From the human T2T-CHM13v2.0 reference genome, Homo sapiens, in the NCBI GenBank assembly GCA_009914755.4, contig CP086569.2:8800001-8864000 (forward strand): 64,000 nucleotides of DNA. Direction: 5' to 3'. Below, one piece after another: positions 17,450-56,700 of the stretch (positions within the stretch are counted from its first letter, which is position 1; every line of letters starts with the position of its first letter). The translations under genes and the position numbers were made by a program. Below the pieces are notes generated by a model. It worked only from the letters and a program-made list of their open reading frames with translations, searched no databases and was not told the origin of the DNA.

Positions 17450-20000
17450 CCAGGTGAAAAAAAGGCTGGTTTAAGATATAAGCTCAATAAATTTAGTAGG
17501 TGCAGTTTGCAGACAAAGCGAGAGCATGAAAAGGATTAATATCCTACATGAGTTGCAATGAAAAACAGAACGCATGGCAAGAAACAAATTTTCTGGAGTA
17601 AATAGTGTCTATGTCTGGAGGAGGATTTGTTCAGCCACCTGAGTTGTCCTCTTCAGCATCCCCCAGGTAATGTCTGGCACTTGTGTCATTCATGTTAACT
17701 TCATCATCCGGGGCTGTGGATCTTTCAGGATTCACTCATTTATTCCTGATACTGGGTTGGGTCCTAGTCATGCCATGGTATGGTTTGATGTGTCATGCTG
17801 AAATCCAAAGAGGACCTGAGGGGGTGTGGACACAAGCATACCTTCTTCCCCAGGTTAATAATTCCCTAGGACTGCACCATTCATTACTGTTTACATCTTT
17901 CCATAAAACTGTAGGTTTTATGCCAATAGCATTGAAGGGTCTTTACCCATACTCCCCCCACCCTTTTATTTGATCGTATTTTTAAGGGAGGAGTGGGCAT
18001 GTTTTACTATTTCTTGTCTTTGGGGTTATATGGAATGCCTGCCGGTGGAATACTGGATGCTCCATGTGTGACAAAATTGTTGAAATTGTGAGCTGACATA
18101 AGCTGGAGATTATCAGTGTTAATTTTTGTGGGTCAGCCCATAAATGCAAAAGTGAAAAGAATATGTTTAATGACATATTGAGTTGACTCTCCAGGCAGAG
18201 CATGTGCACTAATTAAATGCGTGTTGGTCTCAATGGATACATGTACATATCTTAGTTTTCCAGATTCAGGGATGTATGTATCATCTGTTTGCCATAACTG
18301 ATTAGGCTCTAGTCCTCCAGGGTTAACACTTGTTGAAGTAGGAAATGTGCCTATGAGGTGGCAATCTGTGCATTGTAGGATAATTTTTTTTACCACTCTG
18401 TGAGTAAGTGGAAATTATTTAGATAAGTTTCTCCAATTTTGGTGGCAAAATTGATGCAATTGGGTGGCTTGGTTAAGCAGTAATGTCATAACATGAAAGT
18501 CTGCTTCATTATTGCCATAAGTCAATGGGCCAGGCAGTGAGCTGTGGACTCGAAGGTTTGTAATAAAAATAGGATATGTATGTTGATCAAGCAATTGCTA
18601 AAGTCAAAGAAAAAGAGCACACAGGTCTGGGCCCAGAGTGGACTTAATTAAGGTCTCTCAAGGTTTTGTAGTAAATAGAGTATGCACAGTCACGTACACT
18701 ACTTATGGCCTGAGTGCAAAAAGTTTCCAAGGCCAGTAGCAGAGCCCCAATCTAAGCTCTCTGAGTGCTAGCAAACCCAGATCAAGTGATTGAATTGTGT
18801 GGTCTCCACCATACTGCTGCTTTTCCATGTTTACCAGACCCATCTGTAAACAGTGTTAAAGCATGAGGTATGGGGATTGACCTCTTTCTGTGGGCAAAAT
18901 TACCAGCATATGAGATAATAAATGAAGGAGTTGATCAGAAGGATGGATGTGCTCTATTTGTCCTGTGTAATCAGAGAAAGCTATTTGCAGATCTATCAAT
19001 AATGGCAATACTGCTTCAAATTGCTTTTTAGTTAAAAGAATCCTGATGACATCAGGATCAGAACCTAGCCACTTATTACATCATTTGCAGCCTGAATAGA
19101 TGACTTTAGTAATTAACTAAATATAGGGAGATAGTGTTTTAGTCCCATTATATGAGCAAAAAATCCATTCTAGGAAGAATAGCCCAGGGACCATTTGTCC
19201 TATTAACCCTTTAGGGGAGTGTTTGCTGGGAAAGATAAACAGCATGTACCATAAAGCCTGGGACTATGTGATCTAGCTGCCTCTGAGAGATGGCGAGTTC
19301 TATTTCCTTGATTTCTCTTTTTGATGTAGTTCTAGTTCTAGTTCCTTGATTTCCCTTTTTGCTGCAGAGGTTAAATATCTGGGATAATCTAGGGCTGGAT
19401 TGCCCTTTAAGATAGAATATAGGTTTTGTAGTTTATCAGTAGAAATCTTCAAAGTGGGGTGGTGCAAATTAATGTCTCTCAGAAATTTTTGATAATCATT
19501 TAAGATGTGTAACTTGCTAGTATTTAATTTAATGTTTTGAGATCTTACTGACAGGGAAGTTAGTATGTACCCAGGATATTTCCAAGGAGAAGACATCTGT
19601 CCTTTCTCAGGTGGAACGATTAAATCTCTTAGCTGTGTATGCTTTATGACAGAGTAATATAAATTTAAAAATATTGGCTCCATTGGGGCTGCAAGTAGAA
19701 TATCATCCATAAAAATATTAATCTTGCAATCAGAAAACTCTCTTCTACCAGGGAGCAAAGCTTGATTTACATGATACTGACACAAGGTAGGACAGTTTAG
19801 CATTCCTTGGGGAAGCACTTTCCAGTGAAATCAACAAGCTGGCTTTTCATTATTGATAGCTGATATGGTAAACACAATTTTTTCTCTGTCCTGGAGAAAT
19901 TGTATGAGAATAATCTTTTCAGTCAATAATGATTACAGGCAAATTTTGAGGAATCAAAGTGGAGGAAGGGGGGCCCTGTTGAAGGGGCCCAATAGGCTGT
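17450..20000 (-). pseudogene. pol: pol (RT, RNase H, integrase) remnant
   Basis: ORF 19300..19818(-) reads MLPQGMLNCPTLCQYHVNQALLPGRREFSDCKINIFMDDILLAA..., matching the betaretroviral RT motif VLPQGMLNSPTICQ...YIDDIL. ORF 18133..18396(-) reads LQCTDCHLIG...NQLWQTDDTYIPESGKLRYVHVSIETNTHLISAHALPGEST, the integrase zinc finger and DD(35)E core. Multiple frameshifts and stops are present. Confidence 0.8.
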
Positions 20001-21040
20001 AAATTAGCATTAATAGCATGTAAGTCATGCAAAATTCTCTATTTCCCAGACTTTTTGGGAATGACGAAAATGGGTGAATTCCAGGGGCTGTGAGAGATTT
20101 GATATGCCCAGCCTTCGATTTCTCTTCAACTAATTCATGAGCCTTCTGTCATTTGTCTCACTTCAGAGGCCACTATTCTTCCCAAATCGGATCTTGAGAG
20201 ACACATGTCAGGGGTAGAGGAGGAATAACAACAGTGGCCATTGTCATAAAGGGGTATGCAGAGTGATCTCCTCACACACACTGGGCTAATAGGTCCTGCC
20301 CCAAAAGATTAACAGGATGGGCATGATTAGAGGTTGTATAACTGTTGTTCTTACTTCAGAATCGCAGCATGTTATGGGAAGCATGCTCTGCTTGGCTGTG
20401 TGCACTTTGTAGATGCAGAAATTTTCTGTTTTTGAGTGATCCAAGGCCAAGTTTCTGGCCAGTTCTGATCACTAATGATTAAAATGTTCACTCCTGTGCC
20501 CAATAAGCCAGTAAAATTCTTATGTCCAATTTTTAAAAGTAATCATGGGTCTCTGATCAGTGATTAATTGATTCCAATACACTCTCATGGCTCCTGTGCA
20601 TCCAAAGCATCCCTTTCGCTTTTCCTTTCCATGGGCATTGAGGACCCAGTATGGTAAAATCAGTAACTGAGCTATCTTTGATCCAGGGGGAGGAATATGC
20701 AGACCTTTACATTCCATCATAACCAATATCTCACCCTGATAATCACTATCAGTTACCCCATTGGGCACATTAATTCCTTGACTGGGTAGGCTAGACTGCC
20801 CTAGGACTAACCCCACTGTTCCCAGAGGCACCGGGCCCCAGATCCCAATTGCAAAACTTTTAGAGTCTTCTTCTTTTAGCACTAATTCACTGGGGCAGAG
20901 TAAGTCCAGTCCTGTGCTCCCAGTTGTGGCTGCTCTGAAAGAGAAGACTATGGGCTTCCCATTTGACCAAGGAAAGCTTCTGGCATTGCCCCAGTTGGGA
21001 GTGGTGCCTGGAGCTGATCCCTCATGAAGTTTCTGAATGG
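20000..21040 (-). pseudogene. pro: pro remnant with N-terminal dUTPase domain
   Basis: ORF 20520..20882(-) reads LGQSSLPSQGINVPNGVTDSDYQGEILVMMECKGLHIPPPGSKIAQLLILPY...GKEKRKGCFGCTG. These are dUTPase motifs 3-5 in the position typical of betaretroviral pro. Confidence 0.8.
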
Positions 21041-22150
21041 TTTCTTATGGAGTTGCTGTTTTTATCAAATTTAGACCTGCATTGATCTGCCCAATACTTC
21101 CCCTTCCTACTTCGGGGACATAAAGAGGTGGATTCTCTCCCTTAGTTACCTTGATCTTTACTATGGGGACATTCCCTTGACATATGGCCTGACTCTCCTC
21201 ATAAACACAATTTTGATCTCTCTCCCTTTTCACTTTAGGAGGCCTTAATGCCATAGCCAATATTTTGGCTTTGTGTATCTCAGTTCCTACCAGCTGAAAT
21301 GCTGGTATTAGCTCCCCAACAGTGGTGGCCTTTCCTCTGATTGCCTGCATTGCCTGCTGGCGATCCACATTAGCATTTTCAAAAACCAGTTGCAATGATA
21401 AGATATCAGTGGCCTGGGCATGACTAATTTGTCTCTTAATTGCCTGGGTTAACTGATTGATAAACTCAACAAATGGCTCCTGAGGCCCTTGTCAAACATT
21501 TACAAAAGATCCCTGCTGAATTCTGCTTTCAGGAATTTGGTCCCAAGCCCTGAGAGCACACAGAGGGACATCAGCATAAGCCTGGAGATCAAAATTTAGT
21601 TTTTATTGCACATCGGCATGAGGACCCCTTCCCTGGAGCATATCAGCTGTTATATTTTGCCTGGCCACCTGATTCACCAGGAGAGGCAATACGGCAAGTA
21701 ACGTTTTCTCCTTCTTCCCCTTTTTAGGCTCTTCTGTGTATAATGAGACTAAAGCCATCCTTACAGGGGCCCATAGTGTTAAAGATGATACTGGGACCCA
21801 TTGCCCTTGTGCATCATGCTGTTTAAGATTTCTCCCCACCTGTTACCAGAGTTCTACCTCTAGCATTCCTTCTTCTGGGAACCATGGATTATGTGAGACA
21901 GTAGTTTGCATTAGTTTTCTTAAGTGAGTCCATGAAGCTGATGCTCTGGTAGCATTAAGCAACTATTTCAACATTTTATATACTGTTTCTGTAGAGCTGG
22001 TAACTATTGTCCCATGATGAAACCTCAGCCTGACCAATCCCCTCCGAACTTGGAAATCCCAAGTGGACACCAATGACTTCCTGTTTTACTGACTTAACCA
22101 CACTGTCTTCTTCAACCTTTGTTTTCAGGGGGTCCATTGCACCTCCTTTG
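21040..22150 (-). pseudogene. gag: gag remnant (capsid C-terminus and degenerate nucleocapsid; matrix/N-terminal half missing)
   Basis: ORF 21045..21395(-) reads LQLVFENANVDRQQAMQAIRGKATTVGELIPAFQLVG..., the capsid ...ELMAYENANPECQSAIKPLKG... region. Only ~580 nt lie between the 5' LTR and the capsid C-terminus, so the matrix region is deleted. Confidence 0.75.
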
Positions 22151-22177
22151 CCATGTTCTTCACATGGGGGTGCTGGC

Positions 22178-22664
22178 TGTGGGGGTCTGTCTTGCAGACC
22201 CTGACTCAGTGATGGATGAATAAAGTACACTGACACACAGATATTCTGCTTTGTCAGTTCAACTAAGCATCTGGGCCACTTAGAGTATCCACACAGAATG
22301 CACTAAACAGTTGCAACTGCAGCCTCAAACAGCCAGCAAGACTTTCATCTGTACAGTAAAGATTAATTGACAAAGGTCTGAGTAAACACCACTAGAGGGT
22401 AATTGACATTGCAGACTTCCCAAGTAGAAAGGAATTAAGCACCTGCAGTAGATCAAAAGTTAGTCTTCTTACCACATGAGTAAAGAAGCCAGTTAGATAA
22501 ACTACCCTACCTTCCTTTGTATGCACTTTAACCTATCTACTCAAGGTAAGGATTAGTTTGCCTTCAGCCATAACCTTATCCTGAGACTTTTACAAAATCC
22601 TTCAGGCTTTGCAAGAAGGTTTGTGACTTATAATTTTCCCCACCATCCTGACTGAACCCCTACA
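22178..22664 (-). repeat. Provirus 1 5' LTR (~487 bp)
   Basis: Direct repeat of 14002-14500. Minus-sense it starts TGTAGGGGTTCAGTCAGGATGGTGGGGAAAATTATAAG and ends ...GACAGACCCCCACA. Confidence 0.7.
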
Positions 22665-33639: not shown

Positions 33640-36175
33640 AATCCAAACCCTAACAACTAACACTAAACCCTAAAAATAACCCTAAAATGCTAACTATAAT
33701 CCTAATCTTAACCCCAACCAAAACCATAAACTAGCCACATCCCTAAACTTAAATGTAGCACTACACCTATCCCCAATCCTAAACCTACCCCTAGTCCTAA
33801 ACCTACCCAAATCCCAACTTTTAACCCAAACCCTAAACCTAAATTAAATGCAATCCTAGCCCTAAACCCAAAACAAAAAAACCTAACCCTAAAATTGTAA
33901 TTCTAACACCTAACACATAACCCTAACTCCCACATCTACCCCAACACTAACTCTAAACCTACCCTACCCCTACCTTAAAACCATGACACTAACACTACCC
34001 ATATATTGAACAACATCAACTGCAACTCCAACCCTATCCCCAACCCTAACCCCAAGCCCAAATCCAATCTGGACCCTTAATTGTTACCCTAAAACTAACT
34101 CTAATACATAATCCTGAAAATGAGCATGACACTGCCTCTAAACATGACCCTAAGCCAATCTTAACGCAAACTTAAATATAAATCTGAAGCTAACACTGAA
34201 ACCCTAACACTGATGCTAAACACTAACCCTCACATTACCACTAACCCTAAACCAAATCCTAAAGCTAACACTAACATTATAATCCAAACCCTAACCCTGT
34301 AACACTAACCCTAACACTGAAAATAACCCAAACATATAAACTCTAATCTCAACTCCAACCATAAACAATAACACTAATCCTAAACCTACCCCAGTCCTAC
34401 AACAACCTCAACCACAAACCTCCCCATTAATTATAACCATAATGCTAAAACACTAACCCTAACTTTAAGCCTAAAACCCTATTCCTACCCAACTGCAATG
34501 CCAACTGTAACTATAATTGCTGACACCGAAGCCTATAACTAACCCAATCCAAACCCTAACCACTAATCCCTAACCCGGAACCTAAACATAACACTTAACA
34601 AAACCATAACACTACCCAAACCCTGAGGTCTAACCCTAACCCAGACTCTAACTGTGACCCCAAAAACAACCACAAATTGACCAACAACCCTAACCATAAA
34701 ACACTAAACCTAATAAAGACTGTAACAACTAGCCAAAACAATACATCCTAGATCTAAATTTTAATCACTAATGCCAAACCAAGGCCCTGACCCAAATGCT
34801 AACCAAAGGTGAACAGTAGACCTAAGCCTAACCCCTAACTCAAAATCTAAGGCTGAACCTTAACCCTAACCATTAACACTAGGCCCTAAACCCTAAACTT
34901 CAAACAATAACCCTAACAGGTAATGATAACCCTAACCCATAACCCTAACACTAATCCTAACCCTATCTCTACTACAAACCCAACTCCAACACTAAACCTA
35001 ACACAAACTCTAACCAAGACCAAAACTCCAAACAAGAAACCTAAACATAAACCTAACCATAATTGTAACATAATCATAACCATAAAGCTAAAATTAAAAG
35101 CAAGCCCTATGCTACCACCAAACTGTAAATGCTAACATCAACTTTAACCATACACCCTAAACCCAAGACGTAAACATAACAATTAATAATAAACCTAATA
35201 ATAACCTTCAAACATTTTAAACCTAAACTTAAACTTAATCCTAAATGCTAAATCCTACCTTATTCCTCAAAATTCAACCTAATCATAGAACAGAGCTAAC
35301 ACTAAAAAATAAATCTAAGGCTAAACCTAATTATAACCCCTAACACAAACCCTAATCCAAACACTCAACCCTAAATGTAAACCTAACACTAAACCCTGAC
35401 CCTAAGCCTAAACACAAACCCTAACCCCTAATTCTAACAGAATTTAACCCTAACCATAAGCATAAACCCTAACCCTAAGCATAAACAAAAATGCTAAACC
35501 CAAACTTAACCCTAATCCTATACTGTAACCCTAAACCTAATGCAAACCTAACACTGAGCCTCACCGTAACCCCTTATCCTAACCCTAAAGCCACCTTAAC
35601 CCTAACCTTAAATGCTATACAATAACCCTAAATCTAACCCTAAATCCTAAACACTAACCCTAAACTCTAAACATTAACCCTAACACTAACACTAACCTGA
35701 AAACCTAACCTGAGCCCAAACCCTAAAACCTAAACTGAATTCTTATCCTTATCCTAACCCTAACTCTAAGCCCTAACCCTAACAGTAACACACTAACCCT
35801 ATTACCCTCACTCTCACCCTCACCTTAATTCTAACTCATAACACTAACCATAACGCTGGCCATGACCCTAACCTAGAACTTAACCCTACCTACCCCAGCT
35901 CCTAACCTCTAAGTATAAGCCTGTTTTTTAACCTAAACCTAAGCATAATCCGACCCCAAACCTAACCTAACCTAACATCTAAACCTCATTCTAACTCTAG
36001 CCCTAAACTTAACACTAACCTTGACCCCTGACCCTAATCCTAATTCTAACCCTAACCCTAATCCTACCACAACACTAGCCCCTAACCCAACCCCAGCCCT
36101 AACCCTCAATCTAACACTAACATTTCTTCTGCAATTGTAAACCCCTTCCCTAATACCCAACTTCTATCCTGTCTT
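33640..36175 (+). repeat. Degenerate telomere-like hexamer array (CCCTAA)n, C-rich strand on plus, ~2.5 kb, interstitial
   Basis: Continuous head-to-tail run of CCCTAA/ACCCTA/CTAACC variants (aaccctaaccctaa, ctaacactaaccctaa, cctaaacctaccc ...) with heavy point-mutation decay. ORFs 34923..35135(+) and 35972..36160(-) (GLGLGLELGLG, the reading of (TTAGGG)n) are repeat artefacts. Confidence 0.88.
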
Positions 36176-37476: not shown

Positions 37477-37765
37477 TTTTTTTTTTTGAGGTGGAGTCTC
37501 ACTCTGTCAGCTGGGCTGGAGTGCAGCGGAACGATCACAGCTCACTACAAGCTCTGCCTCCTGGGTCCACGCCATGCTCCTGCCTCAGCCTCCTGAGTAG
37601 CTGGGACTACAGGCACCTGCCACCACACCTGGCTAATTTTTTGCATTTTTAGTAGACAGGGTTTCCCCATGTTAGCCAGATGGCCTCGATCTCTTCCCCT
37701 CACGATCCACCTGCCTTGGCCTCCCAAAGTGCTGGGATTATAGGTGTAAGCCACTGAGCCTGGCC
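37477..37765 (-). mobile_element. Alu SINE with TSD
   Basis: tttttttttttgaggtggagtctcactctgtcagctgggctggagtgcagcggaacgatcacagctcactacaagc...ctcccaaagtgctgggattataggtgtaagccactgagcctggcc. The flanks agctgtcaact and agctgttaact match. Confidence 0.92.
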
Positions 37766-39122: not shown

Positions 39123-39189
39123 GGTAGTAATATTTTAAGCTTAAATTTAACCACGGTGCAAGACTTAGACATGACAAATTATAAAATAT

Positions 39190-40280
39190 TGCTGAAATAA
39201 ATTTCAGAAACCCTAAATAGATGTAAAGACATTCCATGTTTCTGGATTAAAAGGTGATATTTTATATGATGGCAATAATACACAAAGCAATCTACAAATT
39301 CACTGTGATTCCTACGAAATACCAAAATTCTTTTGGCAGAAATGGGCAAGCCAGTCATGACATTCATATAAATTTCAAGGGATTCTGAGTAGCCAAAATA
39401 TTCTTGAAAACAAAAACCAACTTGGATCTCAATTTCAAATATTACTACAAAGGAACAGTAATAAAAAGACCATAATACTAGCATAAGGACAAACATATAG
39501 ATCGATGGAACTGAATGTTGAGTCCAAGAATACCTCTATAGTCAATGATTTTTGACATGTAGCCAAGACCATTAAATTCAACAAATGGTGTTAGACCACT
39601 GACTACTAAAATTCAGACAAATAAATTGTACTCTATCCTCATAACATGTAGAAAAGTTAATTCAAAATGCTTCAGAAGCCTCAAAAATTAACTCAAAATG
39701 GTTCAAAAAGTTTAATATGTAAACAGAGGTAAAAATGTAAACTCTAGAAGAAAACATAGGGATAAATGTTCATAACCTTGGATTTAGCAGTAGTTTCTTA
39801 GATATGACACTAAAATCACAGGCAAATAAAGAAATAATTTCCTCAAAAACTTTTGTGCAACAGAAGACACTGACAAGAAAGTGAAAAGACATGTCACAGA
39901 AAGATTTGCACATTATATATGTGACAATAGTGTGTTATCCACAATATATAAAGAAATTGTATAACTCAACAACAACATAAAAGACAAACAATCCAATTAC
40001 AAAATGAAGAAATAGTTGAACACACACTTCGCCAAAAAACATGCGTATGGAAAACAAGCACATAAAAATACAAACAGTAAAATATATAAGTTCTACTCCA
40101 TCAAATGTTTCATATAATAGCTTTTCTCATAGTCATGTGATGCTGTGTGGTAAAATTACTACTTTTTATCTCTACCTGAGGAACAGACAAGGTAGCAATA
40201 CTGCTTGGGGGTAAGTTTCCTCAGATGAAAAAAAAATTAGCAAAAATGACATTCTGAAATGAAGACTTTCCTGATGGACT
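39190..40280 (+). mobile_element. Ancient LINE-1 (L1M-type) ORF2 fragment
   Basis: Translation shows ...KAIYKFTVIPTKYQNSFGRNGQASHDIHINFKGF... and ...NTHFAKKHAYGKQAHKNTNSKIYKFYSIK.. (compare L1 ORF2 [39 protein letters not shown]). There are many stops. ORF 39179..39496(-) is spurious. Confidence 0.6.
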
Positions 40281-40734: not shown

Positions 40735-41320
40735 GGTAAGAGTAGAAACCTTATGTATTACATGTGTTACATCTGTATGATGAGTGTTACAATAGTAACT
40801 ATGGGTGTTATATTAGTGTTACAGTTGTTCTATTTGTATTACAAATGTTATATGAGTATCATGAGTGTTATTTTAGTATTACAGGTGTTACATCGGTATT
40901 ACAGTTGATACATCAAAATTACAGTTGTTATATTTGAATTGTGCATGGTATATTGGTATCATGAGTGTTACAGTTGTATTACAGGTGTCAGGACAGCTTT
41001 ACAGGTGTTACATCAGTGTTACCGATGTTTTATTTGTATTGCGGATCATGTATCGTTATTATTAGTGTTACAGTTGTATCGTGAGTGTTAGATTAGCATT
41101 ATGGTTGTTATATTTTTATTGTGGATGGTACGTTGGTATTATGAGTGTTTCATTACTGTTATGAGTATTACACTTGTAAGATAAGTGTTATATGAGTATT
41201 ACAGGTGTTACATTTGTAGTACTGTTGCATCTGTATTATAGGTGCTGTGTTAGTTTACTGATGTTACATTTGTAGTAGAGATGATATAATTTATGAAGAA
41301 TGTTATATATGTGTCACAAG
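40735..41320. repeat. Degenerate minisatellite (~15-18 bp unit GTGTTACAGTTGTAT / GTATTACAGGTGTTACAT), ~35 units
   Basis: Direct reading: ...gtgttacatctgtatgatgagtgttacaatagtaactatgggtgttatattagtgttacagttgttctatttgtattacaaatgttatatgagtatcatgagtgttattttagtattacaggtgttacatcggtattacagttgatacatc... Confidence 0.9.
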
Positions 41321-41324
41321 TCCA

Positions 41325-41730
41325 TGGCGTTGACTTTGCATTGCGTCCACCGCGCCTTGTGTGGGGACGGACCTTGGGTAGCACTAAAAAACATATATTT
41401 TTTTACTTCTAATGTTCCACACAAAGCCATTTTACTAAGCCCTTGATCCTCAACAGTCATAGGAAGGTTTTTACTTATCTCTGCCTCAGGCTGTCCCTGA
41501 GCGAGGCGGAGTTGCTAGCGTGTGTGCTGAGGGGAATGCAGCTCTTGTCCTCCGCCGCAGCAGGCGGTGAACACCCGAGCACTCACAAGGTCTGAAAAGG
41601 GTGCTCGCGCGCCGCTGTGCAGGTGGACGGAGGAACTGCAAGACCCACGTGGTCCAGGGCGGCCCTGTGCGCTCCCTCCTGGCTGGCCTGCGGCATCAAA
41701 TAAAGGCAGAGTTCAGATTGTTCTGCGCCC
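41325..41730. promoter_or_regulatory. CpG-dense island (~25 CpG in ~400 bp) in an otherwise AT-rich, CpG-depleted region; candidate unmethylated promoter or CpG-rich repeat
   Basis: catggCGttgactttgcattgCGtccacCGCGcc...gagCGaggCGgagttgctagCGtgtg...cctcCGcCGcagcaggCGgtgaacacCCGagc...gggtgctCGCGCGcCGctgtgcaggtggaCGgagg...ccaCGtggtccagggCGgccctgtgCGctccc. It is followed by AATAAA (41700) and T17 (41771-41787). Confidence 0.4.
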
Positions 41731-42475
41731 ATCATTTTGACAATTCAAACGGAAATGGAGCCTATTATCCTTTTTTTTTTTTTTTCTAAAAATGAGAAGG
41801 AACCAATAACTGGAAACCACAGAAAATGACGTGAATGCAGACGCAAACTTTACTTCTTAAACAAAAATGTCCTCAACATAGTCCTGAGACTTAAAATGCA
41901 AAAAAAAAAAATGCTTTCTCATATTAAAAGTTTGCACTCTGTGAAAAATATTGTTCAGTAAATAGACAAGCCACAGATTGAAAAGAAATATCTTCAAAAG
42001 ACAGATTTAAGCAAGAACTTGCACTCAAAATATACAAAGAAAGTTCGAAATTCAAAAATAAAATAGACTATCCAAATAAAAATGGGTCAAGAGCTGAGCA
42101 GATAACTCACCAATGAAGACAAAGAGATGACAAGGAAACAAAAAGATATTCAATTTCATATCATTGCAGGACTGAAAATCACAAGGATGAGATAGCAGGC
42201 CCCATCTATATTTGCTAGTACTGCTAAACTGTTTTTAAAACATGACAAACGATTTTCTGGAGGATAAACAGGGATTCATTCATTTCTGGTGGAATGCAGG
42301 ATGGTGGGAGATCAGAATACATGACCAGAAACTATGCTTCTTTGGTATAAGGCTTATTTTAAACTCACCATTTTCAGAAAATGCAGACACAGGGGAACTT
42401 CTGAAAGCAGAGAAGTAGTTACCCTTTTGTAAGGGAAATTTACATCTAATAAGGAAATCTCCATTTTAATGAGGC

Positions 42476-42640: not shown

Positions 42641-42656
42641 CCACACCCCTCTCTAA

Positions 42657-42918
42657 CAGAGTCTCACTCTGTTGCCCAGGCTGTAGTGCAATGGCATAAT
42701 TTCAGCTCACCTCAACCTCCACCTCCAGGGTTTACGAGATTCTCTTTCTTCAGCCTGAGGAGAAGCTAGGACTATAGTCATGTGCCATCATGCCTGGCTA
42801 AATTTTTAGTATCTTTATTAGAGATGGGGTTTCACTATGTTTGACAGGATGGTCTCCAACTCCTGACCTCATGATTCACTCAACTTGGCCTCCCAAAGCG
42901 TTGGGATTACAGTGTGAG
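42657..42918 (-). mobile_element. Alu SINE (5' truncated)
   Basis: agagtctcactctgttgcccaggctgtagtgcaatggcataatttcagctcacctcaacctccacctccagggtttacgagattctc...ggcctcccaaagcgttgggattacagtgtgag. Confidence 0.85.
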
Positions 42919-53745: not shown

Positions 53746-56700
53746 TGTGCACATGCTCAGGGCCGAGAGACACGCGGTGTCCTCACTAATACTTAGGTGG
53801 GTCCTAATGTCCAGCAGGATTGCCTTCCTGAACACACACAGAAGGTCCCCTTCCATTTTGCCATCTCTTCACATTTCCTCCCCTGTGAAACATGTGTCAT
53901 CCTCCAAATTCCTTGTGTGGTGACCTGTCTTTTCTGGCCATGGCAGAGGATGGGTGAATGAGGATGCTAGAGGGGAAACAGCATGTCAGGGGACCGTGGA
54001 GTCATTGACACAGAACTTGACAGGTCTGGGAGAGCTATTCTGGGAGGATGTAGACCTAGATGGGCCTCAGGTGGGCATTTGTGTGGAGGGTGAGAGCACC
54101 CTGGTTGAGTCCAAACTGAGCCTTAGATGGTAGCAGTCCTCAGGGCAGGGAAGTGAGATTACAAGGGATAATGAGGCAGCTATTCCTTGAGCCTGGCTTC
54201 TCACCCATTGACCTTAGTTACTTATGCCTCTTAAGCAGCTTAGGGTTCCCCAATCCTGAAATGTGGGTACTACAGTTCCCTGATGGGCCTTTCTCCCCCA
54301 GCCCATGCATGGTCTGAGTATGCTTACCGCAGTCCCTGAGCCTTGGCTTCGCTATGTGTCCTAGCTCCAGGACCCACAGGCCTCTCATCCCACAGGAGGC
54401 TGCTCCCCAGCCTCCTCTCTGTTCCCTCTCTGAGGGCCTAACTCCCTTGGGTAGCGCTGCATGAGATTGAGCCACAGGCCCTGGCTGATGATCTGGGGGA
54501 CTGGGCAAAGTGGTCATGACAGGTCAGGTTCTGGTTCAAAGCCAATTCCTCCGATGCCAAGTGGACCAGCAAGGTCCTTTCCCATGATGCCCCACCACCA
54601 CCCCACCTCAGCAACCCATCATACCCTGGGCAGTCACCATCAGCCAACCAGCTGAAGAAACTCAGTTAGGTGTGTCCTGCCTGAAACTGGGGCCTTCACC
54701 TGCATGATCCTAGAACCACTGGACACAGTGGAGCCAGTCACCCTCTATCCTGGAGTGAGAGAAGTTGGGAAGGCTCATGCCAAACCTAGCTTCCCACATA
54801 CCACCCCCTCTACCATGCGGGGAGGCACTCCTTATTGAGAATTCCAATGCAATACTCCTTAATGATCACTTCATTGTGGAAGTAAATGTTGTGATGAAAG
54901 GCATACTTCATCCTTCTGCCACTACTCAGGATGGCTGAGTTCCTCCACCTGCCTGTCCAAGAAGGAGAAAGAGGATGGTCAAGGGACAATTTCATCTAGG
55001 TCAGCTGAGGGGGCCTGCTGGCTGGGGCGAAGCATGCGATTTCCCTTCCCAGCTCTCCCATTGAGACATCCCTGAACCCCAGAAAGACCTCAACCTGACC
55101 AGGACTTGGAACCCTCCCCCAGAACCAGGCTCCCCATCCTCACTTGCAAATCCATCATGTAGCTTTGCAGGACTTCCTCATAGTTTCTGAGCTACTTGCT
55201 CTCACCAGAAATAATCACAACTTTTAAACTGTTCTTTATGTCAAATTAATTTTTTTATTTTTACTACCTCATGTTCTGCATGAGGTATGTGTTTTTAAAT
55301 TTATTTTCACCCTCTGTGATAAAGAGCTTACTAACATTCATACCATAATTATCTTTCAGTTTTAATTGTCTGTTCCTAAAGATTCACTGAAACTAAGAAT
55401 TCTATTTATGCTTGTATCTTTCAGCAACCATATGTCAGATAATGATGCCCATTACTGCAGAAATCATATATACAGTTCCAACGGTAGATGAAGAAGAAGA
55501 AGAAAGCAAGATTTAAAGTCTATATGTTCCTAGCACTGTATCAGAAACTTGGTAATCATAGTGAAATCAAAGAATGATCACAGTCAATTCCATCTCATAC
55601 CTAGACTGAAATATGAAATTTCAAAAGAAAAGAAAGTTAAGAATTTTGGGCTTATAAAAATTTTCCTAGATTGATAAAATTATTGGCAACTTTATCTCAC
55701 TAGAAAACATGAACAAAAATACATTTTTATATGTGTAAATATAAATATTTTCATTTCCATCAGTTATGACATGCAAGCAAGTAATAAAGTGAAAGTACAT
55801 TGCAATAATATATGGAACTTTCTCAGTCTCAAAATATTCCATTGACTATTAATTTTATGAAAACCATAAAGAACGCTTCATGAAACTACATTGTACAGTA
55901 CTTTTTAGTATTTTAGTTATATTTTGAATAATCAACATATTAAAAGGAATTCTTCAAAAGTATTTATTACCAATACCTTTATTCCATTTGAGTAATACTT
56001 TTGAAATTAAGTATTTTAAATAAAGCATTAAAAACAAATTTTATTGACAGATTTCAGCTTTTGAAGAAATCGTACTTCTGTATTTGTAGTAATGTGAAGT
56101 ATAACTTTCTCCTCACAATGAATCATTTATAACACCAGTGTTTTTTTTCTCTGATACAAACACTGTGATATCTTATAGCTTTACTGTATCCATATATTTC
56201 ATGCCTCCACAGAGTAGGCTTAAAACATAGAAAAATTGTACTTGTGACAAAATTCCTGGAAAGGGAATGGTAAAATGGGAGAAAATTTCTAACTTTCTGT
56301 TGGTCAATGGATTTGTATATCTTTAGATATAGACACACATTTGCACACTGCGAGTTTGCACATGTACATAAAAATTTATGTAATTTCATGTGTGAAATTT
56401 GATGAGGTTACCTTATCTGTACTCAATTCGATGGGAAGCAAACAAAGTCTCTGTCAATATTTCAATTAATCCAATAATGTTAACTGCTGATAGCTTCATT
56501 CTCCCTGATCCCTGTTGGCAACCTGAAACTTGATGCTCACTCGAATTCATTTCTCAGGGTACCATCCACAAGAGACAGTCACCTTGCTGTGGATTGTGAC
56601 CTCTGACTCCTCTTTCCTCCTATAGAAGTCCTACCTTTGCATATTTAATAAACTTTTTACATGGTTAAAAGGATAAAAGTTCAGTGAAATGTCAAGCCAT

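What the first reader, a model, noticed from the sequence alone, without database searches (positions are those of the whole stretch)
40735..41730. Minisatellite abutting an isolated CpG island in an AT-rich desert
A ~600 bp degenerate 15-18 bp-unit minisatellite (GTGTTACAGTTGTAT-type) ends exactly where a ~400 bp segment with ~25 CpGs begins (CGCG, GCGCGCGCCGC). Elsewhere in the window CpG is strongly depleted, as expected for methylated primate DNA. Retained CpGs imply germline hypomethylation, i.e. a functional promoter/regulatory element such as a lncRNA or alternative first exon. Alternatively this is a young CpG-rich retroelement fragment (SVA, LTR12-like). An AATAAA plus T17 immediately downstream (41700-41787) could mark a short transcript's end on one strand, or a poly(A) on the minus strand belonging to a retrocopy whose body lies at 41790-42400.
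Basis: seen in the sequence. Interest (0 to 1): 0.55.

Follow-up and report, generated by a model that had tools for sequence, protein, structure and literature searches.

The report
Weak CpG island beside fossil repeat
A short CpG-rich patch of primate DNA sits next to a worn-out 20-base tandem repeat; it is probably a small regulatory or promoter element kept free of germline methylation, but a recent CpG-rich insertion cannot be excluded, and either way it is an ordinary kind of feature.

Summary
Both parts of the observation are real, but several details are wrong. The repeat spans 40753-41280. Its period is strictly 20 bp (9+11), with a 100-bp higher order, not 15-18 bp. Units match their consensus at only about 66%, so it is a fossil array, not a likely VNTR. 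The CpG segment holds 22 CpGs, not about 25. It splits into a minor cluster (41328-41369), a 133-bp CpG-free gap and a roughly 225-bp core (41502-41727; GC 64-66%, o/e 0.70-0.74). It passes the Gardiner-Garden criteria and fails Takai-Jones. Window background o/e is 0.15. Fifteen of 18 Alus in the window have decayed to o/e 0.33 or less, and only the youngest Alu matches the patch. So the patch is either AluY-young or protected from germline methylation. I found no insertion hallmark: no LTR ends with a target-site duplication, no poly(A), no second copy, and no similarity to Alu, L1, or remembered SVA, LTR5 or LTR12 sequences. There was also no Rfam family and no RNA structure. My best reading is a weak orphan CpG island, at confidence 0.45. 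Promoter activity and methylation state cannot be tested with these tools, and no repeat library was available.

The parts
40753..41280 (.). Fossil tandem array. It has a 20-bp period (9+11) and a 100-bp higher order, with about 26 units. It stays in one phase without indels from about 40790 to 41220.
   Evidence: TRF; autocorrelation and register; consensus and identities; phase scan and TG/CA split at unit positions 2-3; z 14.7.
41281..41327 (.). AT-rich spacer between the last recognisable unit and the first CpG of the patch.
   Evidence: Sequence; phase scan loses signal here; CpG positions.
41328..41369 (.). Minor CpG cluster with 5 CpGs. It includes ATGGCG and CGCG.
   Evidence: CpG positions; region 41321-41380 has GC 60% and o/e 0.94.
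41370..41501 (.). CpG-free, mostly AT-rich gap that splits the 'island' in two.
   Evidence: No CpG between 41368 and 41502. GC is 35% over 41381-41489. A weak MIR-like alignment was not confirmed by nhmmer.
41502..41727 (.). CpG-dense core with 17 CpGs, GC 64-66% and o/e 0.70-0.74. TpG+CpA o/e is 1.40.
41646..41662 (.). E-box CACGTG (41646-41651) and GC box GGGCGG (41657-41662). The GC box is one of only two in the 64 kb.
   Evidence: Motif scans. Both motifs contain CpG, so they are not independent of the CpG richness.
41699..41704 (+). AATAAA hexamer with no A-tail after it.
   Evidence: Sequence. There are 90 plus-strand and 89 minus-strand copies in the window, so it is unremarkable.
41771..41785 (.). 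T15 run. By analogy with other long T runs in the window, it may be the tail of a short minus-strand retroposed fragment lying to its right.
   Evidence: TRF. Two of the three other T runs of 15 or more are tails of minus-strand Alus. The body could not be identified.
41885..42161 (+). Old L1 (L1M-type) ORF2 fragment that bounds the feature on the right.
   Evidence: It aligns to the L1 at 39805-40085 with score 94, against 49+-7 in shuffles. tblastn matches ORF2 aa 1029-1074.
39135..40067 (+). Old L1 ORF2 fragment (aa 769-1093) to the left.
   Evidence: tblastn with a remembered L1 ORF2p.

Best explanation
The CpG-rich patch is a small, weak ('intermediate-CpG') orphan CpG island. Its core is 41502-41727 and it has a minor outlier at 41328-41369. 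I take it to be unique-sequence DNA whose CpGs survived because it is, or was until the last roughly 15-20 million years, kept unmethylated in the germ line. The usual cause of that is bound transcription factors or transcription initiation. It would therefore act as a promoter or regulatory element for an unannotated, probably non-coding, transcript.

The neighbouring 20-bp/100-bp tandem array is an old, inert relic. Its ancestral unit carried a CpG (ACGG...) that has decayed to TG or CA in nearly every unit. The junction therefore marks the edge of the protected zone.

Shown: the anatomy, the CpG statistics, the contrast with Alus of known relative age, and the absence of insertion hallmarks. 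Inferred: hypomethylation, protein binding and transcription.
For: 1. CpG o/e is 0.70-0.74 at GC 56-66%, against a window background of 0.15. The core has 16 CpGs where 3.2 are expected at background (P 3e-7).
2. Local calibration from the 18 Alus in the window: 15 have o/e 0.33 or less and retain 17% or less of their consensus CpGs. This includes the Alus at 37493-37765 and 42656-42912. Only the youngest Alu (96% non-CpG identity) reaches 0.71.
3. The flanks are old. L1M fragments lie on both sides, and the array's 100-bp copies differ by 25-37%.
4. There is no insertion signature. TG..CA plus target-site-duplication candidates number 3, against 17+-7 by chance. No A-tail follows AATAAA. There is no second copy in the window, and the LTRs of the resident provirus do not match.
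5. There is no similarity to Alu or L1 copies in the window, or to remembered SVA, LTR5, L1HS 5'UTR or LTR12 3' sequences.
6. There is a shoulder of CpG retention in the old array next to the patch. Region 41001-41250 has 5 CpGs where 0.8-1.3 are expected (P 0.001-0.01). A protected island with a 'shore' would give this. A core-only recent insertion would not.
7. Array unit positions 2-3 read TG in 9 units, CA in 8 and CG in 1. This is the signature of a decayed CpG, and it contrasts with the retained CpGs next door.
8. About half of mammalian CpG islands are orphans, and many of those initiate transcription (PMC2944787).
Against: - The patch is short and weak. It fails Takai-Jones: the best 500-bp window has GC 50.4% and o/e 0.73. 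The CpG/GpC ratio is 0.55.
- TpG+CpA o/e is 1.40 in the core, against 1.24 window-wide. This suggests that a third or more of the original CpGs have already decayed, as in a methylated sequence.
- A 133-bp CpG-free gap lies inside the supposed island.
- Motif support is thin: one GC box and one E-box, with no TATA, CCAAT, ETS or NRF1 site. The minus-strand GTGAGT donor is at chance frequency, about 0.84 per kb.
- No repeat library (Dfam/RepeatMasker), no epigenomic data and no orthologous sequences were available.
- Every search of outside collections was empty, but those collections are microbial or viral, so this says little.
Confidence: 0.45

Rival explanations
1. The patch, alone or together with the array, is a fragment of a young, low-copy CpG-rich interspersed repeat, or another recent insertion such as a truncated LTR, captured cDNA or small segmental duplication. 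It is methylated and simply has not yet lost its CpGs.
For: - Its CpG o/e equals that of the youngest Alu in the window (0.71).
- The TpG+CpA excess of 1.40 in the core suggests ongoing decay.
- The layout, with a tandem repeat, then a GC-rich region, then AATAAA near the 3' end, resembles a U3-R arrangement on the plus strand.
- Short 'islands' in AT-rich DNA are often repeats (own knowledge).
- The array has no indels despite 25-37% divergence. This would be natural if its heterogeneity was inherited rather than acquired in place.
Against: - No TG..CA ends with a target-site duplication: 3 candidates against 17+-7 by chance.
- No poly(A) tail.
- No other copy in 64 kb that holds 18 Alus, several L1s and a provirus.
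- No similarity to remembered SVA, LTR5, LTR12 3' or L1 5'UTR sequences.
- No protein-database ORF from any of its 13 open frames.
- For a core-only insertion, the raised CpG count in the adjacent old array is unexpected.
- The lead that the core splits a MIR element was not significant: 14 of 120 random flanks did as well, and nhmmer gave no hit.
Confidence: 0.25
2. The patch is a dying relic. It was once a CpG island, for example the promoter of a gene or transcript lost in primates. It lost protection fairly recently, is now methylated and decaying, and has no present function.
For: - The intermediate values (o/e 0.70, CpG/GpC 0.55, TpG+CpA 1.40) fit partial decay.
- The patch is fragmented into two clusters.
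- The neighbouring array shows that CpGs in this locus do decay once unprotected.
Against: With the decay seen in local Alus, protection must have lasted until roughly the AluY era. From sequence alone this is hard to tell apart from continuing protection. No lost gene or exon was identified nearby.
Confidence: 0.2
3. The GC- and CpG-rich patch is a by-product of GC-biased gene conversion at a recombination hotspot associated with the tandem array, and has no regulatory role.
For: Minisatellites often flank hotspots (own knowledge). The patch is the most GC-rich 200 bp of the window apart from 54.26-54.5 kb.
Against: - There is no PRDM9 13-mer within 40-42 kb. All six matches in the window lie elsewhere.
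- Biased conversion raises GC but does not protect methylated CpGs. The GC-rich 54.3-kb region is not flagged as CpG-rich by the same criteria.
- The array is too degenerate (66%) to be an active minisatellite.
Confidence: 0.05

Closest known systems
Orphan CpG islands (Illingworth et al. 2010, PMC2944787)
   Same: A CpG-rich patch far from any recognisable gene. It meets the classical composition criteria, and its CpG retention implies a lack of germline methylation.
   Different: It is much smaller and weaker than typical CAP-seq islands, with a core of about 225 bp and 17 CpGs. It is interrupted by a CpG-free gap. Its unmethylated state and any transcription initiation are untested.
Intermediate-CpG promoters (Weber et al. 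2007 classification; own knowledge)
   Same: The best 500-bp window has o/e 0.73 and GC 50%. This falls between the high- and low-CpG classes.
   Different: That classification is applied to known transcription start sites, and none is known here.
LTRs with tandem repeats in U3 (for example HERV9 LTR12 or LTR10; own knowledge)
   Same: On the plus strand a tandem array lies upstream of a GC-rich segment that carries AATAAA.
   Different: There are no TG..CA ends, no target-site duplication and no second copy. The array is AT-rich, with a 20-bp unit at 66% identity. The only sequence match is a 14-nt word on the opposite strand (E 0.16).
SVA composite retrotransposon
   Same: A VNTR is followed by a unique CpG-containing 3' part with AATAAA.
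   Different: There is no (CCCTCT)n, no Alu-like part, no GC-rich 35-50-bp VNTR, no SINE-R similarity and no poly(A).
TERRA-type CpG-island promoters built of 61-, 29- and 37-bp repeats next to telomeric or interstitial telomeric arrays (bioRxiv 10.1101/2025.05.15.654290)
   Same: Tandem repeats plus a CpG island lie 4.6-5.4 kb inward from a (CCCTAA)n-type array on the matching side.
   Different: No 61-, 29- or 37-bp periods occur anywhere in the window. The repeat here is AT-rich with a 20-bp unit. The distance is larger, and the telomere-like array is extremely degenerate.
Tandem repeats adjoining CpG islands at imprinted DMRs (for example Rasgrf1; own knowledge)
   Same: A direct-repeat array sits immediately beside a CpG-rich segment.
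   Different: The array here has lost its CpGs and its homogeneity. There is no evidence of parent-specific methylation.

Membership tests
CpG island (Gardiner-Garden & Frommer) | At least 200 bp with GC of 50% or more and CpG o/e of 0.6 or more | tested here: met
   Ten overlapping 200-bp windows from 41421 to 41800 pass. The best is 41501-41700, with GC 66%, 16 CpGs and o/e 0.74.
CpG island (Takai & Jones, stringent) | At least 500 bp with GC of 55% or more and o/e of 0.65 or more | tested here: not met
   The best 500-bp window, 41255-41754, has GC 50.4%, 23 CpGs and o/e 0.73.
CpG island (functional definition) | Unmethylated in germline or early embryo | not testable with these tools
   It is only inferred, from CpG retention compared with local Alus.
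Promoter | Transcription start site (CAGE), H3K4me3, open chromatin | not testable with these tools
   Sequence motifs are sparse: one GC box and one E-box, with no TATA, CCAAT, ETS or NRF1 site.
Minisatellite / VNTR | Head-to-tail units of 10-100 bp | tested here: met
   Period 20 with a 100-bp higher order, z 14.7.
Minisatellite / VNTR | Copy-number polymorphism, which needs homogeneous units | tested here: inconclusive
   Units are only about 66% identical to the consensus and the 100-bp copies are 63-75% alike. Instability is therefore unlikely. Population data are not available.
Solo LTR of an endogenous retrovirus | TG...CA termini flanked by a 4-6-bp target-site duplication | tested here: not met
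   3 weak candidates against 17+-7 at random offsets. The only candidate that includes the array has a 4-bp duplication and leaves AATAAA outside.
Solo LTR of an endogenous retrovirus | Belongs to a multi-copy family or matches a consensus | tested here: inconclusive
   There is no copy in the window and no match to the provirus LTRs at 14.06-14.49 and 22.24-22.65 kb. Six exact-pattern scans and one protein search were empty, but the collections are microbial or viral. No Dfam library was available.
SVA | Hexamer repeat, Alu-like region, GC-rich VNTR, SINE-R, poly(A) | tested here: not met
   None of the parts is visible. blastn with a remembered SVA sequence gives only T/A-run hits.
Poly(A) retrocopy on the plus strand | A-tail 10-30 nt after AATAAA, plus a target-site duplication | tested here: not met
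   There is no A run after 41704. The only homopolymer is T15, 67 nt downstream on the same strand. No duplication longer than 8 nt was found.
Known structured RNA gene | Match to an Rfam covariance model, or a fold more stable than shuffles | tested here: not met
   Between 39500 and 43000 only an Alu-derived SRP hit and a noise hit appear. Fold z-scores are +0.61 and -0.03.
TERRA-type promoter | Tracts of 61-, 29- and 37-bp repeats related to the Xq promoter | tested here: not met
   TRF finds no such periods in the window.
L1 5'UTR | Followed by ORF1 on the same strand | tested here: not met
   There are no ORF1 hits in the window. The 13-nt resemblance at 41805-41817 is noise (E 5.7).

The most novel reading that the evidence does not exclude
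The locus is the inward remnant of an ancient chromosome end. Under this reading, the 2.5-kb, very degenerate (CCCTAA)n array at 33640-36120 is the old telomere. The once CpG-bearing 20-bp array and the still CpG-rich patch 4.6-5.4 kb further in are what is left of a subtelomeric repeat-plus-CpG-island promoter, a functional analogue of TERRA promoters but of an unrelated repeat type. That promoter would have stayed protected since the end became interstitial, and would drive minus-strand transcription towards the telomere-like array.
Probability: 0.03. Interest if true: 0.6.

Novelty: new member of a known kind. Interest (0 to 1): 0.2.

Why it matters
If the patch is truly unmethylated in germ cells, it marks an unannotated promoter or regulatory site in a gene-poor, AT-rich stretch. 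The sharp contrast with the adjoining array would then be useful: the array's own CpGs have decayed to TG or CA, so the junction gives a base-level view of where protection from methylation stops. If the patch is a young repeat fragment or a dying island, it is routine genome furniture. In either case the feature belongs to well-known classes, and standard genome-browser tracks would settle it within minutes.

Tried and rejected
1. Second copy in the window. blastn with word 9 gave only the array's self-hits and T runs.
2. LTR ends and target-site duplications. Candidates were below the chance number. A search for a duplication matching the sequence next to T15 found only an 8-mer.
3. Whole block inserted into one old L1. 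The left flank does not align to the expected L1 position (score 30 against 32+-5). The right flank does align (94 against 49+-7). The two flanks are therefore not shown to be halves of one element.
4. Alignment to other L1 3' ends in the window gave nothing useful.
5. Remembered consensus sequences (LTR5, SVA, L1HS 5'UTR, AluY, LTR12 3' part) gave no hit on the patch. The best was a 14-nt word of LTR12 in the array on the opposite strand, at E 0.16.
6. MIR lead. Region 41390-41479 aligns weakly to a remembered MIR consensus (8-10 of 300-500 shuffles do as well). Continuation of the MIR beyond the core is not significant (14 of 120), and nhmmer gives no hit. I dropped this lead.
7. L1 5'UTR with an ORF1 start at 41793. 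The match is noise.
8. Rfam, with the permissive threshold, found no family. RNA folding of both strands showed no excess stability. Inverted-repeat search found no terminal inverted repeats of note.
9. Exact-ORF look-ups for two ORFs in the patch and two long ORFs elsewhere in the window were all not on record.
10. Exact-pattern scans:
   - Viral contigs, scan 1 (18-mer from the array): six single chance hits.
   - Viral contigs, scan 2 (29-mer from the patch): zero hits.
   - Metagenome contigs, two scans: zero hits.
   - Genome contigs, two scans: zero hits.
11. Protein search with all 13 stop-to-stop frames of the patch joined together: 8000 word candidates, none at E of 0.01 or better.
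12. PRDM9 13-mer: none near the feature.
13. The array is too degenerate for a sensitive exact probe. Degenerate patterns match it only 1-3 times.

Full report
CONTEXT. The window is primate DNA. It holds 18 Alu copies, several L1 fragments and a betaretrovirus-like provirus. Overall GC is 38% and CpG o/e is 0.15. All the tools available are built for microbial, viral or RNA/protein work. No repeat library, epigenomic data or orthologous primate sequence could be reached. This limits how far the interpretation can be taken.

THE TANDEM ARRAY. The array is real. TRF reports period 20 (40806-40934) and period 100 (40819-41079, 76% matches, 0% indels). Self-match peaks only at lags 20, 40, 60, 80 and 100, with side peaks at 9 and 11. 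At lag 20 the match is 0.58, against 0.31+-0.02 in shuffles (z 14.7). A phase scan places recognisable units from about 40753 to 41280. There is one uninterrupted phase from about 40790 to 41220, with small shifts only at the two ends.

The consensus unit is AYRGGTGTTAYATTNGTATT. Mean identity to it is 66%, and the four 100-bp copies are 63-75% alike with ts:tv of about 1.2. So the unit is 20 bp, not 15-18 bp, and the array is a fossil rather than a likely polymorphic VNTR.

Two details of the array are worth recording:
- Unit positions 2-3 read TG in 9 units, CA in 8 and CG in 1. Going from TG to CA needs two changes, but each is one step from CG. The ancestral unit therefore very probably carried a CpG (ACGG...), which has decayed on one strand or the other.
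- Despite 25-37% divergence there is not one indel in about 430 bp. Two L1M fragments in the same window, at similar divergence, need 14 gap openings in about 300 columns. I have no explanation for this.

THE CpG SEGMENT. Region 41325-41730 has GC 55.7%, 22 CpGs and o/e 0.70. It is not uniform. CpGs lie at 41328-41368 (five), then none until 41502, then 17 up to 41726. The real object is therefore a core of about 225 bp (GC 64-66%, o/e 0.70-0.74) plus a small outlier.

It passes the Gardiner-Garden criteria in ten overlapping 200-bp windows. It fails Takai-Jones, because the best 500-bp window has GC 50.4% and o/e 0.73. CpG/GpC is 0.55. TpG+CpA o/e is 1.40 in the core, against 1.24 window-wide, which hints that some CpGs have already been lost.

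The enrichment is far beyond chance: 16 CpGs where 3.2 are expected at the background ratio (P 3e-7). The only other CpG-dense zone, 8741-9440, is a pair of Alus.

HOW OLD MUST THE PATCH BE IF IT IS METHYLATED? The Alus give a local clock. Fifteen of the 18 have o/e of 0.33 or less and retain 17% or less of their consensus CpGs. These include the copies at 37493-37765 (o/e 0.23) and 42656-42912 (o/e 0.15), which bracket the finding. Only the youngest Alu, at 9136-9416 with 96% non-CpG identity, has o/e 0.71. The patch is thus either about as young as an AluY or has been shielded from germline methylation.

IS IT AN INSERTION? I looked for every hallmark I could compute.
- TG..CA termini with a 4-6-bp target-site duplication. 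Three weak candidates were found, against 17+-7 at random offsets.
- A poly(A) tail. There is none after AATAAA. The only homopolymer is T15 on the same strand, 67 nt further on.
- A second copy in the window. There is none, and the provirus LTRs do not match.
- Similarity to the Alu and L1 copies of the window, or to my remembered SVA, LTR5, L1HS 5'UTR and LTR12 3' sequences. There is none. The remembered sequences are leads, not tests.
- A known RNA family, or an unusually stable fold. Neither was found.

Two tempting leads failed their controls. The first was a MIR element split by the core: the left piece is weakly MIR-like, but the continuation is no better than 14 of 120 random flanks, and nhmmer sees nothing. 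The second was an L1 ORF1 start at 41793, which is noise.

The flanks are old. A plus-strand L1M ORF2 fragment lies at 39135-40067 and another at 41885-42161. Only about 100 bp to the right of T15 stays unassigned. Two of the other three long T runs in the window are tails of minus-strand Alus, so T15 may be the tail of a very short retroposed fragment.

OUTSIDE SEQUENCES. The following searches found nothing related:
- Six exact-pattern scans, two each of the viral, metagenome and genome collections.
- Four exact-ORF look-ups.
- One protein search with all 13 open frames of the patch.
These collections hold little primate DNA, so the negatives weigh little.

INTERPRETATION. The balance favours a weak orphan CpG island. 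The evidence for this reading:
- The patch retains CpGs in old surroundings.
- It has no insertion signature.
- The part of the old array nearest the core shows a shoulder of raised CpG, with 5 CpGs in 41001-41250 where about 1 is expected (P 0.001-0.01). A protected island with a 'shore' predicts this. A core-only insertion does not.
- The array shows that CpGs at this locus decay once they are unprotected.
- About half of mammalian CpG islands are orphans, and many of them initiate transcription (PMC2944787).

The mechanism I commit to, at confidence 0.45, is this: factor binding and/or transcription initiation at 41500-41730 keeps the DNA unmethylated in germ cells, so its CpGs persist. The strand is undetermined. 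One GC box and one E-box sit 11 bp apart at 41646-41662, and a minus-strand GTGAGT lies at 41586-41581, but these occur at chance frequency or follow from the CpG richness itself.

The evidence against this reading:
- The patch is small.
- It has a TpG/CpA excess.
- It contains an internal CpG-free gap.
- Motif content is thin.

These features keep two rivals alive. A young low-copy repeat or captured fragment has confidence 0.25. An island that lost protection recently and is now decaying has confidence 0.2. GC-biased conversion at a hotspot is unlikely, at 0.05: there is no PRDM9 motif nearby, and conversion does not protect methylated CpGs.

COMPARISON WITH KNOWN KINDS. The feature behaves like an orphan, intermediate-CpG island. 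It is not an SVA, a complete solo LTR, a poly(A) retrocopy, a known RNA gene, an L1 5'UTR or a 61-29-37-type TERRA promoter; in each case a defining feature was tested and not met. The TERRA comparison arises because a 2.5-kb, very degenerate (CCCTAA)n array lies at 33640-36120, on the side expected for an old chromosome end. Interstitial TERRA-like promoters are documented (bioRxiv 10.1101/2025.05.15.654290). However, no 61-, 29- or 37-bp repeats occur here, so this remains a 3% speculation.

VERDICT. The feature is an ordinary member of known classes. Interest is 0.2. RepeatMasker, germline methylomes, CAGE/H3K4me3 tracks and primate alignments would settle it quickly.

Noticed in passing
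window 33640-36120: About 2.5 kb of very degenerate (CCCTAA)n-like repeat on the plus strand. TRF gives period 6 at 61% matches, and GC skew is about -0.7 over 34-36 kb. It looks like an old interstitial telomere-like array. It is longer than the 16-1840-bp range reported for human interstitial telomeric sequences in T2T (bioRxiv 10.1101/2025.05.15.654290), though much of it may be too degenerate to count.
   Followed up: partly
window 14060-22650, minus strand: A betaretrovirus-like (HERV-K-type) provirus. It has Gag p24 (21045-21395), dUTPase (20520-20882) and RT plus thumb (19300-19818). The LTR pair lies at about 14063-14489 and 22240-22651, at 85-89% identity. An Alu is inserted at 16533-16812. 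It is unrelated to the finding.
   Followed up: partly
window 8595-9718: Two Alus lie here, at 8753-9024 (minus) and 9136-9416 (plus, AluY-like), framed by (TA)n/(AT)n tracts. The older Alu (87% non-CpG identity) still keeps 50% of its consensus CpGs, far more than other Alus of similar divergence in the window.
   Followed up: no
window 40790-41220: The tandem array keeps one 20-bp phase with no indel across about 430 bp, although its 100-bp copies differ by 25-37%. Old L1 fragments nearby, at similar divergence, show 14 gap openings per about 300 columns. This is unexplained.
   Followed up: partly
window 490-2693: A rearranged young L1, with overlapping plus- and minus-strand ORF2 pieces about 92-95% identical in protein to my remembered L1HS ORF2p. 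This suggests an inversion, possibly of the twin-priming type.
   Followed up: no
window 54260-54520: This is the only other stretch with GC of 60% or more in 200-bp windows. It is not flagged as CpG-rich by the same criteria. It may be an old LTR or other decayed GC-rich element.
   Followed up: no
window 41786-41884: About 100 bp lie between T15 and the L1M fragment and keep 2 CpGs (41830, 41842). This may be a very short minus-strand retroposed fragment whose tail is the T15 run. Its identity is unknown.
   Followed up: partly
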